Virus record (IMG/VR): IMGVR_UViG_2563366883_000011 | Strand: one strand, 5' to 3' | Length of the DNA: 25,186 bases | DNA from: a virus | Lineage: Duplodnaviria > Heunggongvirae > Uroviricota > Caudoviricetes | Shown here: positions 12,001-18,000 of the stretch, in pieces | Numbering within the stretch: position 1 is the first letter of the stretch | How the letters are laid out: every line of letters begins with the position of its first letter | Program-made: the position numbers

Positions 12001-15000
12001 AAGCAATATGATCTGCATCTTCCGGCCACCACACTTCGCTGGTGGCCGCTTTGATCAGGAAAACATAGCGCCCGCCTTTATCACGCATGGCACTGGCATG
12101 CTTCATGATGTAACGCATGCCGGTGATGTATTGTCCCTCATGCTGACTGGCGCGGCTGTACGGGGGATTACCAAAGGCAGCACCTTTAAGCTCCGCAAGA
12201 CGTTCTGACCAGTCATGTGCCAGCGCGTTGTCTTCCGCCGTGTAATACGCGGCACATTTGGCGTTATCACCGTCAGTAAACAGATCCAGAACAAACGGGC
12301 CAAACAGGGTGTTAATTCCCCAGAAAATGTTGTCCGGCGTGCGCCACTGATCGCCCACTTCCTTCAGTTCATGGGCTGGTTTGTTCCGTAGTTCCACCAG
12401 CGCCTGGCAATATTTATTACTCATTAAGCCCCCACGTAATTCCCTGACAGATACCACTCATCACCCGCTACAGCGCGCTTTCTGCTTTTCCGTAAGCACC
12501 GCTCACGACGCGCCAGAAAATTGTTTCGTTCTGGCTGGGAGTGGCTTTCACGGAATGCCGCCATCCACACGGTTGCAGCACGACGGTATAAGCCCCTGGA
12601 CTCCAGTTCTTCCGCCTGGCGGGTCAGGCACAAAATCACCCGGGGATCGTTAGTGCCGACATAGAAATTGCGCACAGGTATGGTTTCAAGAACAGGTTGC
12701 AGTTTCTCCTCCTGCGATATCTCAGCCTGGTGTGGGAAATGTCTGCGTGTTTTCCCTTCACAACAGTGAGCCACACGGCCACTCTGACGTAACTTGCTTG
12801 CTGACTGCAGAACGCACTGTCGTGAGTAACCAGCAAAAGCATCCGCAATGTCACCTGAAGTACACCCCGGATGGGCTTCAATGAATTTCTGTACATCGTT
12901 CATCAGACTCATGATCACCCCCTGAATCCTGTCGGGATCTGGCTGTAGTCCACGTTGTCGTAACTGGCTTTGAAGTACGGGTCCTCGCGTCTGGCTGCAG
13001 ATACCGCAGGAACTTCCCAGGATTCTTCGAAATGACGATCCGGACCAAAGAACGTGACAGCCTGTTTCACAAATTGTGTGCCGCTATTGCCCATCGCAGA
13101 TACCCAGCCCGCGTAGCGTTTCACACCTTCCAGCATGGTTTCGGGGTTTACCCCCTCGTTCAAACGGGCTTTCCAGGCTTTGAAGGCTGCTGATTTTGAA
13201 TTGCCACCAGCACGTTTGGGATATTCCTGCCAGGCCTGTTCAAATTCCGGTGAATATTCCTGTCGGGCAGAACGCGCTGGCGCAGACGCGTCAGCGGATG
13301 CATCAATAGTGTTTTTAGTCTCCGTTGTAATCTCTGTAGTAATCTCTGTATTTGTATCAACATTCGGCGTATCCCCTGTTCCGTTATGACGTCGGGGGGT
13401 GTTCCGTTTTAACGTAATAGCTGTATCGCTGATTGCATTATTGCTGTTACTTTCTGGCGAAACAGAAGAAGGTGTGGTGATGGCCGCAATTGCCTGTGGG
13501 TTGATCCCGACAAACAAAATATTGCTGCATTTCACCCCATCGAGCATTTCCACCGTGCGTAAATCCAGAGTAATAAACCCTGCATCGCGCAGACGCTTCA
13601 GCGCATCTGCGGTTTCCCTTTTCCCGAAACCAAACTGCTCAGCAAACGCCTGGTAGCTTCTTTGCAGTTTGTCGCCCTGAAAACGCTTGCGATATCCCAG
13701 CAACGCTCCGGTGTGCTCATCCCTGACCTCTGTCGGGCGGTACCAGTAAACGATCTCTGAAAGCAGAGCGATAGCCGTCGCATCCGGACGCCCACTGGGT
13801 AGTCGAATATATTTCCACCAGGTCGCAGGTGTAACATTGCCGGAAATATTAATTTGACCAATAGCCATAACTTCCGGTGTGGGGGCGTAACGGCTCATAC
13901 AACCTCCTTCCGCAGCATGAGAATTGTGTAGCCACGCGCAGGTTGTAGTCTGGCTTTTGCATCAATAGTAAGCGTTGCAATTTTTCGGATATGAAGATAA
14001 CCAGCTCTTTCCAGTGCCAGGGTTTCCCTGAATATCGCTTGCTTAGAACAACAGCAGAAATCAGCAAGCACCTGATGATCAATAACTCTCTCGCCTTCAC
14101 CGTCTGAAGAACCCGACATCAAAACACGCAACATAATCAGGCGCTGAATCGGGTTATCGAAAGCACATCCGCACACAAACTGAAAACAGTTCACGCCACA
14201 CCTCCCAGACGCTTAAACATTTTTCCGGAGCAAAAGGCTATAAGCGGCATACTGACGCGGTAATTACGGCCCAGCGGTTCACAAATCACCTTCTGACATT
14301 CACGGTCAACCAGGCTAACACGTAGAACATGCCCTGCAGGCGTGGTGTACCACTGACCAGGACGAGGACAACGGAAAGTCTGATTGGTAAACCGTTTGAA
14401 AATATTCCGGATCATTTGCGCCCCCTTACCTCTGAAGGGTTCAGCGACAAATTTATGAGACTGGCCAGTAGCGCCGCGTCGTTGATGCGGTCATACAGAC
14501 TTACAGCCAGCGGGGATTCGGCTTTTGCCAACATGGGATAAAGCTGCTGCAGCCAGACCTTGTGGATTACCGACAGGTGGGAGTAAAGCACGCTGGCGTT
14601 ATCTGCGGCATCGCTCAGCGTGGATGGCTTTGAAAGCAGTTTTTCCATCTGGTTAAAGGCATTGATGTATGCCTCTTTGAACCGGGCAGCACGTTTACCC
14701 GTGAAACCCATAGCAAGAAACGCAAAACCGTCGCGGGTGATTTGGTAACAAGGGAGTTTGCGGCCTGATGCGTCGGTGTATTCACTTAACACAAAATTGT
14801 GTTCAGTAAATTCAGCGGAACATTCGAGGTTTCTAATTCTATCTAAAACCCGCTCATGCCGTTTAGTAAAGTAATTAGCTACTGCAAGAGATGTGGTGAC
14901 AACGCGACCATTGATAATCGTGATTTCAGGGTGAGATTGGGTTGGGAGAGTAGTCATGGTGACAGCCCCTATGTTGAATTCAATGAACTCACCACCAAGG

Positions 15001-18000
15001 CTTTCCACGACCATATAGGTGGTGAGACGTACAGGGGTGGAAATACCGGTCAACATAGAACCCGGCCCAACCGAAGTTGGCCCTGCACGCCCCACCATAA
15101 TTTGGGCGTAACGATGCTCATGACACGAAAAAACCGCATGAGCGCGGTTGTGCTCTATATTGAATTTCGGGTTTCCACGCCCGGCACCCGCTTTATAAGG
15201 TGCCGGAACAGTGTAACGTCCCGGAATTGCAGAATCAATATGCTGGTGGTCCTTCACACTCAACAAAATCACGCCTGAATTTCCACAAAGGACTAAAGCA
15301 CTCATGCGGGTAGTCTTTGCGAAGATAGATAACGCGCTGTGTTTCTGGCTCCCAACGAATAACATGGACATAAAGCCCTCTTCCGTCACGAAACCAGCGG
15401 TTAAGTTCCTGCACAACTCGCCCCCCACAGTCAGGTAAAGTTCTCTGTGGTTACTTACAGCCAGGTGATTTGGTAATCTGCATTCATGCCGTAACAACAG
15501 GTGTTCAGCGACGCTGACCACCAGCTGTTGCGACAAACGGTTATTTGCCGTTAAACTATTCATGCGTTAGTTTCTCCACAACCAGAAGCAATCGACGCCA
15601 CGACGCCCGGAGCTGCACACTCGCGGGCGTTACTATTTTCTGGAGCGCAGAAGATTTTGTAGACCAGTGCTGCATGCTCCTGGAGCTTCGAAATTGAAAG
15701 ATACAGTTCGTCGTTAATTGCTGTCTTCTCATGCGGTTCCACTACACCGTCTTCGATTGCTGAACGAATCTGTCTGGAATAACCGCCGATCTGTTCAATG
15801 ACTTCCAGCAGGCGCTGGTTTATATCGGCGTTCTCTACTGCCTCAATTTCAGGAAGCGATACGAACACCCCACCAGCAGACTGTGCGACAGCATCCGCAA
15901 TGTAGTGAGTGCCAGCCGCACGCTGTAAAACCATTGCCCATCCCAGCGGGAAAATCTGATCGCCATCTGCACGAAGGCGGTTGAATAAAGCGTTCTCTGT
16001 TACATCCAGCCAGTCAGCAGCTTCAGCGTAACCCCCAGGCAATGCCGCGATAGTTTTTCTGACAGCTTTCACGTACCACTCAGGTTGTTTTTCCACTTTC
16101 CAGTGATGCTTACCCACGGCTTACCTCCTGTTCCTGTGGTTTAAACCCATTCTGGTTTTGGCTAGATTGAAAACGTGCCGGATAAAGAATCTGCATTTCG
16201 CTGATTTCACCCTTAAAAAAATTGGCCAGACGTTCTGCAAGATCGATAGATGGAATTTGTTCCAGTCTTTCAATACGACTCAGCGTCGCTGGATTGACCT
16301 GAACGCCCGCAGCAACATGCTGCAAAGTAAATCCGTGCGCCTTACGCACATTCCGTAATGGTGATTGCATATAACCTCCACATATTGCGTGATGAGCATA
16401 TTATTTCACGCAAATATTTTGCGCAAGTTGATTTGCTTAACGCGCAATAAAGAAATGTAATAAACGCATGAACATAGGAAATCGAGTCAGACAACTTCGC
16501 CAGGCGAAGAACATGAAAATCGCCGATCTCGCTGAAGCAATAGGAGTGGATGCGGCGAATATCTCGCGCCTCGAAACAGGTAAGCAGAAACAATTCACTG
16601 AACAAGCCCTGAGTAATATTGCCAGGAGCTTAGGTGTTGATATTGCTGATCTCTTTACCTCAGACCTCAAAAGTAATACTGTATGTAAAAACAGTATTAG
16701 TGAGGATGTTGCGCAGGTGAAGGATGTATTCCGTATTGAAATGCTGGATGTCAGTGCCAGTGCGGGAAATGGCCTTATCCAGGGCGGTGATGTCATTGAT
16801 GTGATTCATGCCATTGAATACAGAACTGATAATGCTGTATCGATGTTTGGTGGACGACCAGCAAATCACATTAAAGTTATCAACGTTCGTGGGGACAGTA
16901 TGTGTCCAACCATTGAGCCAGGAGATCTCATCTTCGTTGATATCAGTATCAATCAGTTTGATGGGGATGGTATCTATGTGTTTGGTTTTGATGATAAAAT
17001 TTATGTCAAACGACTGCAAATGATACCTGACAAACTACTGGTAATTTCTGATAACCAGATTTACCGTGAATGGGGAATTACCAGCGAAAATGAACACCGG
17101 TTTATGGTCTTTGGAAAGGTCTTAATCAGCCAGTCACAAACCCTTAAGCGACACAATTAACCCTTACCTCCTCATCAATTAGCCACCCGAAGGTGGCTTT
17201 TCATTACTCATCAAATTGCATATCTCGCAACAAAAATACTTGCATAATGCGCAACTTCATTTTATCTTTCTTTCCAGACCAACAAACAAGGTACTAACAA
17301 AATTTGGTTGTAACACGGCGTATGGCACATGCGTCGTTAGCGGTCTGGGGACGTTAAAGGAGACAATCCACTCCTTGCTCGGGCAAACAAACCAGGTAGC
17401 CGGAATGTGCAAGTCAATGATGATGCTGATAAGACGCCTAACCAGCGTGGCGATTCGGTTTGACGCCTGGGAAGAGACCAGGGTGCAACGATGAGGGCAT
17501 TTATGGAACCGCGACAAAGTGTGGTGCCGTAACTGGCTAAGTGCTCTCAGTGTTGTGGTGAAGGCGCAGGCTGATGCGCGAAAGACATTGCAGCTATTGC
17601 GGAAAAGAGCTGTTCGGCGGGGCAATTAAACGCCCGTGAGAGTCTGAAATAACCGCAAGCCGGAGATCAGCACCGGTCACCACAACAGCCACTGCTTTGG
17701 CGGTACCAGTTTGTACACTTGCTTCCGGCTGGTACCGCTCTTTTTACAAAACAGAGAAGAGCATCACCGGACGACGGGCTCATAACCCAATCCATCCGGG
17801 CGGCTGCCACCGCAGGTGTTCTTCTCTGTTTTGTGGGGAAACCAACCGACCTTGCAGGGTCGATATGATGAGGAGCAGCAAAATGGCTAGCGAACGTAGT
17901 ACTGATGTGCAGGCATTTATCGGGGAGCTGGACGGCGGCGTATTTGAAACCAAAATCGGAGCTGTTCTCAGTGAAGTCGCTTCCGGTGTGATGAACACGA

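What the first reader, a model, noticed from the sequence alone, without database searches (positions are those of the whole stretch)
14412..15563. Second Rha-domain protein carries a 200-aa N-terminal extension of unknown function
The Rha core begins at an internal ATG (14957), but the frame stays open for 202 codons upstream to an ATG that overlaps the preceding gene's stop. The extension is non-repetitive and motif-less to my eye. It is either a domain fusion or the product of a fused upstream gene. The window also holds a separate conventional 182-aa Rha near the lysis genes.
Basis: seen in the sequence. Interest (0 to 1): 0.4.

Follow-up and report, generated by a model that had tools for sequence, protein, structure and literature searches.

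The report
Immunity RNA cassette inside Rha ORF
The "200-residue extension" of this prophage Rha protein is not a protein domain: it is a known type of RNA immunity cassette (IsrK/seqA and C4/CI small RNAs with their target sites), plus a small gene in another frame, and an open frame is kept across all of it as in phage P4's eta/kil genes.

Summary
A 383-codon ORF lies on the minus strand (15563→14412). Its ATG overlaps the stop of the upstream ymfL/CII-like gene, and the Rha domain begins after an internal ATG at 14957.

The 202 upstream codons are not motif-less. They contain:
- an out-of-frame DUF4222 gene
- an internal promoter
- an IsrK-like sRNA with an intrinsic terminator
- a C4 antisense RNA
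- C4 target sites abutting the Shine-Dalgarno of the internal ATG

Substitutions in relatives show no codon periodicity in the long frame upstream of 14957. AlphaFold gives pLDDT 21-34 there.

The frame is nevertheless kept open well beyond chance. It is open in 100 of 110 unique cassettes, against 19 and 1 for the other two frames. Its first ATG usually overlaps the stop of whatever gene lies upstream.

This matches phage P4 eta/kil, and P4 eta is itself the Pfam Phage_ASH family. It also matches Gifsy-1 isrK-orf45-anrP.

Best reading: the 181-aa Rha from the internal ATG is the C4-repressed product. The long frame is a sequence-agnostic read-through ORF, used when transcription comes from the early promoter.

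Verdict: a new member of a known kind, of modest interest.

The parts
14412..15563 (-). Long 383-codon 'Eta-like' ORF (Phage_ASH + Rha). Its ATG forms an ATGA overlap with the stop of ymfL.
   Evidence: RefSeq annotates it as WP_001537099.1. The frame is open in all 50 unique close relatives and in 100 of 110 unique cassettes.
14412..14957 (-). Short 181-aa Rha-family protein starting at the internal ATG. Presumed antirepressor and the C4-regulated product.
   Evidence: TIGR02681 covers aa 13-110 of this form. Variable sites by codon position are 54/45/130, a coding signature. The SD AGGGG lies 8 nt upstream. The N-terminus MTTLPTQSHPEI resembles P4 Kil MATTLTPSHPEF.
15235..15414 (-). DUF4222 small gene (59 aa, GTG start, GGGGGG SD) in a different frame, fully overlapped by the long ORF.
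   Evidence: Pfam DUF4222, E 9e-14. Variation is concentrated at its third codon positions (5/23/4 in long-frame numbering). PGAP annotates it separately in other strains. Start context.
15210..15238 (-). Internal promoter: -35 TTGATT (15238-15233), 17-nt spacer, -10 TACACT (15215-15210), TSS near 15203.
   Evidence: Co-positional with Gifsy-1 PisrK (TTGACA...) and P4 PLE. The left edge of the mobile cassette (homology starts at ORF nt 315-323) lies just upstream. It falls below the generic promoter scan's threshold.
15127..15203 (-). IsrK-like sRNA (= P4 seqA). It carries b1 (GTGGAAA, 15178-15172) and a1 (CAATATAG, 15162-15155) and ends in an intrinsic terminator (stem 15149-15132 plus T-run).
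   Evidence: Rfam RF01394, 61.6 bits, E 3.8e-11; c4-a1b1 RF03163 sub-threshold. Terminator. Motif positions.
15015..15102 (-). C4 antisense RNA (= P4 CI RNA) with loops a' CTATGTTG (15058-15051) and b' TTTCCAC (15043-15037).
   Evidence: Rfam RF01695, 82.4 bits, E 4.7e-15. 11 of 27 pairs show compensatory changes across 24 cassette types.
15096..15098 (-). ATG homologous to the experimentally used start of Gifsy-1 orf45. Here it is in frame with Rha (47 codons upstream), so it could give a 228-aa isoform.
14966..15008 (-). Leader with C4 targets b2 (GTGGAAA, 15008-15002) and a2 (CAACATAG, 14976-14969). a2 overlaps the SD AGGGG (14970-14966) of the internal ATG.
   Evidence: The a'-a2 duplex is -16.0 kcal/mol. 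The loops and both target sets co-vary in three specificity types by eye. Across 25 types, own duplex averages -17.9 against -11.7 kcal/mol for non-cognate pairs.
15560..16117 (-). Upstream ymfL / CII(CP76)-like gene whose stop overlaps the long ORF's ATG. Part of the cro-ymfL early-right operon, divergent from the S24 repressor at 16468..17160 (+).

Best explanation
The region 14958-15563 is a P4/P1-type RNA immunity cassette with its upstream spacer. It sits in the early-right operon of a lambdoid prophage, and one reading frame is kept open across it.

Shown by sequence and comparison. Reading 5' to 3' on the minus strand:
1. The ymfL stop overlapping an ATG.
2. A spacer holding an out-of-frame DUF4222 gene.
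3. An internal promoter.
4. An IsrK/seqA-like sRNA with decoy sites a1/b1 and an intrinsic terminator.
5. A C4/CI antisense RNA.
6. Target sites b2/a2, with a2 overlapping the Shine-Dalgarno of the internal ATG at 14957.
7. A 181-aa Rha-family protein.

Inferred from P4, Gifsy-1 and P1:
- In the lysogen the internal promoter makes IsrK and a read-through transcript that is processed to C4.
- C4 pairs with a2/b2, blocks translation of the short Rha (a presumed antirepressor) and allows early termination.
- IsrK/a1b1 competes for C4.
- When transcription instead comes from the early-right promoter through cro-ymfL, ribosomes coupled from ymfL start at 15563. They translate straight through the terminator, C4 and its targets.
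- This read-through overrides the RNA repression and prevents polarity on the downstream replication genes. It produces a 383-aa protein whose first ~202 residues have no selected sequence or fold.

The extension is therefore a sequence-agnostic read-through ORF like P4 eta, not a functional domain.
For: RNA genes:
- Rfam C4 (82.4 bits) and isrK (61.6 bits), both above gathering score.
- C4 covariation in 11 of 27 pairs.
- Intrinsic terminator inside the ORF.

Targets:
- a'/b' are complementary to a1/b1 and a2/b2, and a2 overlaps the SD.
- They co-vary across specificity types.

No protein-level constraint upstream of 14957:
- Variable sites by long-frame codon position are 15/21/16, 5/23/4, 10/10/8, 12/10/10 and 10/14/14 in the five main upstream segments. 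The Rha core gives 54/45/130.
- pLDDT is 21-34, against 63-81 for the Rha core.

Frame kept open:
- 2 of 20,000 shuffles keep a frame open.
- In a DNA-pattern sample, which carries no ORF bias, the frame is always open across the cassette.
- 100 of 110 unique cassettes are open in this frame, against 19 and 1 in the others. In 25 cluster representatives the stop counts are 16, 46 and 102.
- In 108 of 174 non-redundant loci the first ATG forms an ATGA overlap with an upstream ORF of 67-524 aa.
- A natural in-frame 291-nt deletion (L140) removes DUF4222 but keeps the overlap and the frame.

Homology to studied systems:
- The P4 eta ORF (8168..8812) contains the Rfam isrK and C4 hits, is Pfam Phage_ASH (E 4.5e-23) and ends in the 65-aa kil.
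- Gifsy-1 has isrK, then C4 (= orf45/STnc1160), then anrP.

Literature:
- Eta is translated only from the upstream late promoter, is coupled to the upstream gene, and its translation prevents termination. Kil is the truncated form controlled by CI (PMC10111431 summarising Forti et al. 1999).
- orf45 is translated, its nucleotides are conserved but its amino acids are not, and it is needed for anrP translation. It is fused to anrP in S. dysenteriae (PMC4825925).
Against: - Nothing here shows that the long frame is translated in this prophage. There are no Ribo-seq or proteomic data.
- The frame overlaps a constrained gene (DUF4222) for 180 nt, which is awkward for efficient translation of both.
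- The open frame over C4 is not a property of the whole C4 family. In 63 C4 loci from diverse Gammaproteobacteria the three frames are open through C4 in 46, 38 and 30 cases. Seven of 25 enterobacterial cassette types have stops in the frame. In Gifsy-1 it is closed just upstream of the orf45 ATG.
- G+C-rich structured RNA is poor in stop codons. In L006 a second frame is also open.
- Cassette types share ancestry, so they are not independent trials.
- Close relatives in the ymfL-DUF4222 context differ little (pi 0.02-0.04). Openness of codons 1-105 is therefore weakly tested.
- The original P4 paper could not be read. I rely on a secondary summary and my own recollection.
Confidence: 0.65

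Rival explanations
1. Pure over-annotation. Nothing upstream of 14957 is translated in the long frame. The real features are DUF4222, the two sRNAs and a 181-aa Rha. The open frame persists only through shared ancestry and the low stop-codon content of G+C-rich structured RNA.
For: - No codon periodicity in the long frame, and an intrinsic terminator inside it.
- An alternative-frame gene under selection.
- Low pLDDT.
- The ORF is not universal in the C4 family.
- A second open frame in L006.
- PGAP sometimes starts the protein at codon 87 and calls DUF4222 separately.
Against: - Frame-specific stop depletion across 25 sequence clusters, with no conserved stop positions in the other frames.
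- The first ATG overlaps the upstream stop in 108 of 174 loci, across many unrelated upstream genes, including tandem arrays.
- An in-frame natural deletion.
- P4 eta nonsense mutations are reported to be polar.
- orf45 is translated in Gifsy-1.
Confidence: 0.25
2. A genuine folded N-terminal protein domain (the Pfam 'Ash' domain) with its own biochemical role, fused to Rha as in other Bro-network domain shuffling.
For: - Pfam Phage_ASH match, E 3e-8.
- Conserved peptides such as IDSAIPGRYTVPAPYKAGAG and IMVG across cassettes.
- Phage_ASH is treated as a Bro-network domain in PMC10111431.
Against: - The conserved peptides coincide exactly with the promoter, the isrK 5' stem and the C4 5' stem.
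- The variable peptides track the RNA specificity loops.
- No third-position excess.
- pLDDT 21-34.
- No NCBIfam model matches.
Confidence: 0.07
3. A sequencing or assembly artefact, or a recent pseudogene-type fusion of two genes in this one genome.
For: None beyond the unusual length.
Against: - The identical protein was seen on 96 contigs.
- 466 E. coli records cover at least 80% of the DNA.
- The same architecture occurs in sequenced phages mEp460, cdtI, ST64B and Stx phages.
Confidence: 0.01

Closest known systems
Satellite phage P4 immunity region: PLE - seqA - cI (CI RNA) - seqC - kil, nested in eta (ORF199)
   Same: - Same order of elements. Rfam isrK and C4 both hit inside the eta ORF.
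- The eta ORF is Pfam Phage_ASH.
- The long ORF starts at the stop of the upstream gene and ends in frame with the short, RNA-controlled product.
- The N-termini of Kil and the short Rha are homologous.
- The internal constitutive promoter lies inside the long ORF.
   Different: - The downstream product is a 181-aa Rha-family protein, not the 65-aa Kil.
- The host element is a lambdoid prophage, and the cassette sits between cII/ymfL and the replication genes.
- The upstream promoter would be the early-right promoter rather than P4 PLL.
- An extra ~315 nt, including an out-of-frame DUF4222 gene, lies between the coupled start and the cassette.
- An intrinsic terminator follows isrK.
Salmonella Gifsy-1 isrK - orf45 - anrP locus (Hershko-Shalev et al. 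2016, PMC4825925)
   Same: - isrK followed by a C4-homologous segment (orf45/STnc1160), then an antirepressor-like gene.
- Promoter in the same position.
- The orf45 ATG is conserved.
- Translation through the C4 segment is needed for the downstream gene.
   Different: - In Gifsy-1 orf45 ends at AUGA and anrP (ORF6N domain) is in another frame. Here the equivalent 47 codons are fused in frame to Rha.
- In Gifsy-1 the frame is closed upstream of the orf45 ATG. Here it stays open 465 nt further up, to ymfL.
- The Gifsy-1 locus lies after antQ, not in the early-right operon.
P1/P7 immI operon (c4 - icd - ant; Citron & Schuster 1990) and the N15 anti-immunity locus (Ravin et al. 1999). Both known to me from memory and cited in PMC3632133.
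   Same: A processed C4-type antisense RNA made from the same transcript as its target. Two-site (a/b) pairing occludes the ribosome-binding site of the first gene of an antirepressor operon.
   Different: - The target order here is b then a, with a2 at the SD.
- There is no separate icd gene.
- The effector is a Rha-domain protein.
- Whether a spanning ORF exists in P1 or N15 was not examined.

Membership tests
C4 antisense RNA (Rfam RF01695; P1 c4 / P4 CI) | Sequence and structure match to the covariance model at or above the gathering score | tested here: met
   82.4 bits against a gathering score of 45, full-length 1-87, E 4.7e-15.
C4 antisense RNA (Rfam RF01695; P1 c4 / P4 CI) | Stems maintained by compensatory substitutions in relatives | tested here: met
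   11 of 27 pairs have both-side changes across 24 cassette types, with very few broken pairs.
C4 antisense RNA (Rfam RF01695; P1 c4 / P4 CI) | Two exposed segments (a', b') complementary to sites up- and downstream, with the downstream set at the RBS of the regulated gene | tested here: met
   a' CTATGTTG pairs with a2 CAACATAG, which overlaps the SD. b' TTTCCAC pairs with b1/b2 GTGGAAA. Co-variation across types.
C4 antisense RNA (Rfam RF01695; P1 c4 / P4 CI) | Accumulation of a stable processed ~77-nt RNA | not testable with these tools
   No expression data available.
IsrK / seqA (Rfam RF01394) | Match to the covariance model at or above the gathering score, ending in an intrinsic terminator | tested here: met
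   61.6 bits against a gathering score of 50, full-length 1-77. Terminator stem 15149-15132 plus T6.
P4 eta/kil-type nested genes (Pfam Phage_ASH) | An ORF that spans the isrK/seqA and C4/CI genes and matches Phage_ASH | tested here: met
   Phage_ASH on aa 117-213, E 3e-8, above the cut-off. P4 eta gives the same match at E 4.5e-23.
P4 eta/kil-type nested genes (Pfam Phage_ASH) | The long ORF is in frame with a shorter product that has its own SD and ATG downstream of C4 | tested here: met
   Internal ATG at 14957 with an SD 8 nt upstream, in frame.
P4 eta/kil-type nested genes (Pfam Phage_ASH) | The start of the long ORF is coupled to the upstream gene, and an internal constitutive promoter lies inside it | tested here: met
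   ATGA overlap with ymfL. 108 of 174 loci show the same arrangement. The promoter is co-positional with PLE and PisrK. Promoter activity itself was not tested.
P4 eta/kil-type nested genes (Pfam Phage_ASH) | Translation of the long ORF prevents premature termination (nonsense mutations are polar) | not testable with these tools
   Known for P4 only, via the summary in PMC10111431. Here only frame-specific stop depletion supports it.
Rha family (Pfam PF09669 / TIGR02681) | Rha domain match above the curated cut-off | tested here: met
   PF09669, E 5.7e-31, aa 223-308. TIGR02681, 100.6 bits against a cut-off of 45.95.
Phage antirepressor (functional class) | Binds and inactivates a phage repressor | not testable with these tools
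   Inferred only from position in the cassette and from annotations of homologues.

The most novel reading that the evidence does not exclude
The open frame across the cassette is a selected, sequence-agnostic 'ribosome bridge'. In at least 18 of 25 enterobacterial cassette specificities, and in tandem arrays of them, a frame with no amino-acid constraint is kept free of stops. It is start/stop-coupled to whatever gene lies upstream. The same DNA therefore yields repressing sRNAs from the internal promoter, or is translated through, melting the terminator, C4 and its targets, when read from the phage early promoter. On this reading Pfam Phage_ASH is the translation of an RNA cassette rather than a protein domain. 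The 383-aa, 228-aa and 181-aa Rha isoforms would then report which promoter is active.
Probability: 0.45. Interest if true: 0.5.

Novelty: new member of a known kind. Interest (0 to 1): 0.35.

Why it matters
- It replaces an 'unknown N-terminal domain' with a concrete regulatory device whose parts can be mutated one by one.
- RefSeq and GenBank names for this ORF ('peptidase', 'Rha family transcriptional regulator', 'ash family protein') hide two sRNA genes, a promoter, a terminator and a small gene. The Pfam Ash family appears to owe its conservation to RNA, not protein.
- It ties three separately studied systems (P4 immunity, Gifsy-1 IsrK, P1 immI) to a very common E. coli, Shigella and Salmonella prophage module. 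The module occurs in about 1,300 of 5,426 complete E. coli genomes, including Stx-converting phages.
- In those prophages, control of an antirepressor bears on prophage induction.

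Tried and rejected
- NCBIfam gave no model for the extension, for the L003 'ash family' protein or for DUF4222.
- The generic sigma-70 scan did not report the internal promoter; it matches 8 of 12 positions, below the scan's threshold of 9. I placed it by alignment to Gifsy-1 and P4 instead.
- The first relatives set was chosen by tblastn and so favours open frames. I replaced it with DNA-pattern samples.
- I tested whether an ORF over C4 is universal in the family. It is not (46, 38 and 30 of 63), so the claim is restricted to the enterobacterial isrK-C4 subfamily.
- About half of the genome contigs pattern hits were chance matches in G+C-rich genomes. I removed them with a stem-pairing filter.
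- The b'-b1/b2 cognate-versus-cross energy test is weak, because many types share the same b'.
- The AlphaFold alignment is shallow (20 sequences at 66-97% identity to the query), so low pLDDT is only supportive.
- Forti et al. 1999 (PMC94026) and its DOI are not held. Two paper searches failed on short terms.
- P1 and N15 loci were not fetched.
- The artefact hypothesis was rejected.

Full report
**1. The observation**

The feature is on the minus strand. ORF 14412..15563 (-) encodes 383 aa. Its ATG (15563-15561) overlaps the TGA of the upstream 185-aa gene 15560..16117 (-), giving the sequence ATGA, with a GGAGA Shine-Dalgarno 9 nt upstream. That upstream gene is Pfam Phage_CP76 (CII-like) and is called ymfL in RefSeq.

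The Rha domain (PF09669, E 5.7e-31) covers aa 223-308, and the internal ATG at 14957 is codon 203.

The extension has 0, 14 and 10 stops in its three frames. Only 2 of 20,000 dinucleotide-preserving shuffles keep a 202-codon frame open. The open frame is therefore real and not a chance event.

The second Rha (799..1347, 182 aa, Rha + ORF11CD3) lies next to Rz and lysozyme genes.

**2. What the 202 codons contain**

The claim that the extension is motif-less does not hold.
- Rfam finds a full-length C4 antisense RNA at 15102→15015 (82.4 bits, gathering score 45).
- Rfam finds a full-length isrK sRNA at 15203→15127 (61.6 bits, gathering score 50). A sub-threshold c4-a1b1 match overlaps it.
- isrK ends in an intrinsic terminator: stem 15149-15132 followed by T6.
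- In another frame, 15414→15235 encodes a 59-aa DUF4222 protein (E 9e-14) with a GGGGGG Shine-Dalgarno.
- Pfam Phage_ASH matches aa 117-213 of the long ORF. That stretch is exactly the translation of isrK + C4 + leader.

The C4 loops pair with sites on both sides.
- Loop a' (CTATGTTG) is complementary to a1 (CAATATAG), which lies inside isrK.
- Loop b' (TTTCCAC) is complementary to b1 (GTGGAAA), also inside isrK.
- Both loops are also complementary to b2 (GTGGAAA, 15008-15002) and a2 (CAACATAG, 14976-14969) in the 57-nt leader.
- a2 overlaps the AGGGG Shine-Dalgarno of the internal ATG.

A promoter lies 7 nt upstream of the isrK 5' end: -35 TTGATT, 17-nt spacer, -10 TACACT, spanning 15238-15210. 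It occupies the same position as the mapped isrK promoter of Gifsy-1 and as PLE of P4.

**3. Is the long frame a protein-coding sequence?**

I aligned 50 unique relatives and counted variable sites by long-frame codon position 1/2/3.

| Segment | Variable sites (pos 1/2/3) |
|---|---|
| Rha core | 54/45/130 |
| First 149 nt | 15/21/16 |
| DUF4222 segment | 5/23/4 |
| isrK | 10/10/8 |
| C4 | 12/10/10 |
| Leader | 10/14/14 |

- Only the Rha core shows ordinary purifying selection on a protein.
- In the DUF4222 segment the excess falls on the third position of the DUF4222 frame.
- Upstream of 14957, selection therefore acts on an RNA structure, a promoter and another reading frame. It does not act on the amino-acid sequence of the long ORF.
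- C4 stems show compensatory changes in 11 of 27 pairs across 24 cassette types.
- AlphaFold2, using a 20-sequence alignment, gives pLDDT 21-34 for aa 1-220 and 63-81 for the Rha core. The alignment is shallow, so this is supportive only.

**4. Yet the frame is kept open**

The long frame was open in all 50 relatives, but that set was picked by tblastn and is biased towards open frames. I therefore sampled by DNA pattern instead.
- In 85 viral contigs sharing the C4 loop, the frame is always open from at least 204 nt upstream of the loop into the downstream gene. The other two frames stop within 15-87 nt.
- A broader C4 pattern was run in viral and genome collections and filtered for C4 stems and an isrK motif. 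It gave 110 unique 251-nt cassette regions.
- The frame is open in 100 of these, against 19 and 1 for the other two frames.
- Clustered at 88% identity there are 25 types with different a'/b' loops. Cluster representatives carry 16, 46 and 102 stops in the three frames. No stop position is shared by half of them, and all 16 stops in the long frame fall in 7 types.
- In 108 of 174 non-redundant loci the first ATG of this frame forms an ATGA overlap with the stop of an upstream same-strand ORF. Those ORFs range from 67 to 524 aa. Another 11 loci lie within 2 nt.
- One relative (L140) has lost 291 nt (97 codons, ORF nt 30-320), including DUF4222. The deletion is in frame, and the ymfL overlap is joined directly to the cassette.

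Homology to the window in other genomic contexts starts at ORF nt 315-323, just upstream of the -35 element. The mobile unit is therefore promoter - isrK - C4 - leader - effector. Window codons 1-105 are context-specific spacer.

There are limits to this evidence.
- Across 63 C4 loci from Pseudomonas, Stenotrophomonas, Enterobacterales and others, the three frames are open through C4 in 46, 38 and 30 cases. The spanning ORF therefore belongs to the enterobacterial isrK-C4 subfamily, not to C4 as such.
- The cassette types are related to one another, so they are not independent trials.

**5. Relation to studied systems**

*P4 (NC_001609).*
- Rfam C4 hits 8507→8420 (the CI RNA) and isrK hits 8692→8615 (seqA).
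- Both lie inside ORF 8812→8168.
- From its MMM start codons this ORF gives 197-199 aa, which is eta (ORF199).
- Its last 65 aa, MATTLTPSHPEF..., are kil. The window's short Rha begins MTTLPTQSHPEI.
- The eta ORF is a full-length Pfam Phage_ASH match (E 4.5e-23) and aligns to window aa 150-277.

PMC10111431, summarising Forti et al. 1999, makes these points:
- Kil is a truncated Eta.
- Eta translation prevents termination.

I could not read the original paper.

*Gifsy-1 (NC_010392).*
- isrK (34316→34240) is followed by a C4 hit (34214→34131), then by anrP.
- That C4 hit covers the region called orf45/STnc1160.

The IsrK paper (PMC4825925) reports:
- orf45 is translated.
- Its nucleotide sequence is conserved but its amino-acid sequence is not.
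- Its stop overlaps the anrP AUG.
- Its translation is needed for AnrP synthesis.
- In S. dysenteriae it is fused to anrP.

In the window, the homologous ATG (15098) lies 47 codons upstream of the Rha ATG and in frame with it.

PMC3632133 had already noted that IsrK and C4 correspond to seqA and CI, and that some lambdoid prophages carry the pair.

**6. Mechanism proposed**

Shown here: the parts, their complementarity and co-variation, the absence of amino-acid constraint, the frame-specific absence of stops, and the start/stop coupling.

Inferred from P4, Gifsy-1 and P1:
- *Lysogen.* The internal promoter gives IsrK, which is terminated at 15128, together with read-through RNA that is processed to C4. 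C4 pairs with b2/a2 and blocks the ribosome-binding site of the 181-aa Rha, a presumed antirepressor. The untranslated RNA is then terminated. IsrK (a1/b1) competes for C4 and can switch translation on, possibly from the orf45-like ATG.
- *Early-right transcription.* The genes from cro to Dam overlap end to end, mostly by 4 nt. Ribosomes leaving ymfL would reinitiate at 15563 and translate through the terminator, C4 and its targets. That would override the RNA repression and avoid polarity on the replication genes at 14415-12915. The product would be a 383-aa protein with a non-selected N-terminal half.

I put about 0.95 on the identity of the cassette and about 0.6 on translation of the long frame. 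Overall confidence in the explanation is 0.65.

**7. Rival explanations**

- *Pure over-annotation* (0.25). It fits the lack of periodicity, the internal terminator and the overlapping gene. It does not explain the frame-specific stop depletion or the coupled starts.
- *A folded Ash domain* (0.07). The conserved peptides coincide with the promoter and the RNA stems, and the variable peptides track the specificity loops.
- *Assembly or sequencing artefact* (0.01). This is excluded by hundreds of independent genomes.

**8. Novelty and verdict**

The kind is known: P4 eta/kil with CI and seqA, Gifsy-1 IsrK, and P1 immI. This is a lambdoid-prophage member with a Rha-family effector, an extra DUF4222-containing spacer and an in-frame orf45 equivalent.

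Three things may go beyond what I found in the literature: the comparative evidence that the spanning frame is maintained across many specificity types, the tandem arrays of cassettes, and the RNA origin of Phage_ASH conservation. All three extend a known idea.

Interest is 0.35. The finding is a new member of a known kind.

Noticed in passing
L092 (minus strand; C4 starts at 1545, 2201 and 2857 of the reverse complement), L090, L096, L097, L305, L124: Tandem arrays of two or three complete cassettes (isrK - C4 - Rha-like gene), with periods of 653-659 nt or 848-860 nt. Most copies carry different a'/b' specificity loops. Each Eta-like ORF starts with an ATG that overlaps the stop of the previous one.
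   Followed up: partly
25 cluster representatives (e.g. L003 2861-3100, L006 1711-1950, L266, L319): At least 25 sequence types of the cassette exist, with different C4 loops and matching a1/b1 and a2/b2 sites. This looks like a large repertoire of RNA immunity specificities among enterobacterial prophages.
   Followed up: partly
window 14925-15215 (aa 117-213 of the long ORF); L292 8330-8704: The Pfam Phage_ASH (PF10554) profile corresponds end to end to the translation of isrK + C4 + leader + the first ~11 codons of the effector. Its conservation seems to come from RNA and promoter constraints. RefSeq 'ash family protein' entries (e.g. WP_223677318.1 in L003) are the same thing.
   Followed up: partly
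L140 (IMGVR_UViG_2693429642_000015), aligned to window 15534-15244: A natural 291-nt in-frame deletion removes the DUF4222 gene. It joins the ymfL-overlapping ATG directly to the cassette promoter.
   Followed up: yes
window 6836-7584: Two copies of the sRNA STnc100 (6892-7101 and 7379-7584, minus strand; 165 and 141 bits) and an AsxR anti-sRNA (6836-6888, plus strand; 63 bits). They lie just upstream of a nanS-p-like esterase gene (4704-6683, minus strand), as in Stx-phage late regions.
   Followed up: no
window 12424-16370, minus strand: The early-right genes overlap end to end: cro-like 16110-16370, ymfL 15560-16117, long ORF 14412-15563, 14191-14415, 13895-14194, replication protein 12915-13898, PerC-like 12424-12918. 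Most overlaps are 4 nt (ATGA). Without the long ORF, the 600-nt cassette would be the only untranslated gap.
   Followed up: partly
L293 (Gifsy-1) 34131-34214: The published orf45/STnc1160 segment of the Gifsy-1 isrK locus is a full Rfam C4 hit (69 bits). In the parts of the IsrK paper I searched, the term 'immI' does not occur, and a link to C4/CI did not appear in the passages returned.
   Followed up: partly
P0001, P0016, P0047 and others: Many database copies of this 383-387-aa ORF are named 'peptidase'. No domain evidence supports that name. Fused versions of 541-598 aa also exist.
   Followed up: no
L001 5592-6704 (E. coli CP55_Sichuan, the copy identical to the window across the 1152-nt query): In the genome with a 100% identical copy of the ORF, an IS421 transposase gene sits right after a shortened replication gene (816 nt, against 984 nt in the window). 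That prophage may therefore be defective.
   Followed up: no
window 799-1347, minus strand: The second Rha protein carries a C-terminal ORF11CD3 domain and has no C4 or isrK hit upstream. The two Rha genes of this prophage are therefore regulated differently.
   Followed up: partly
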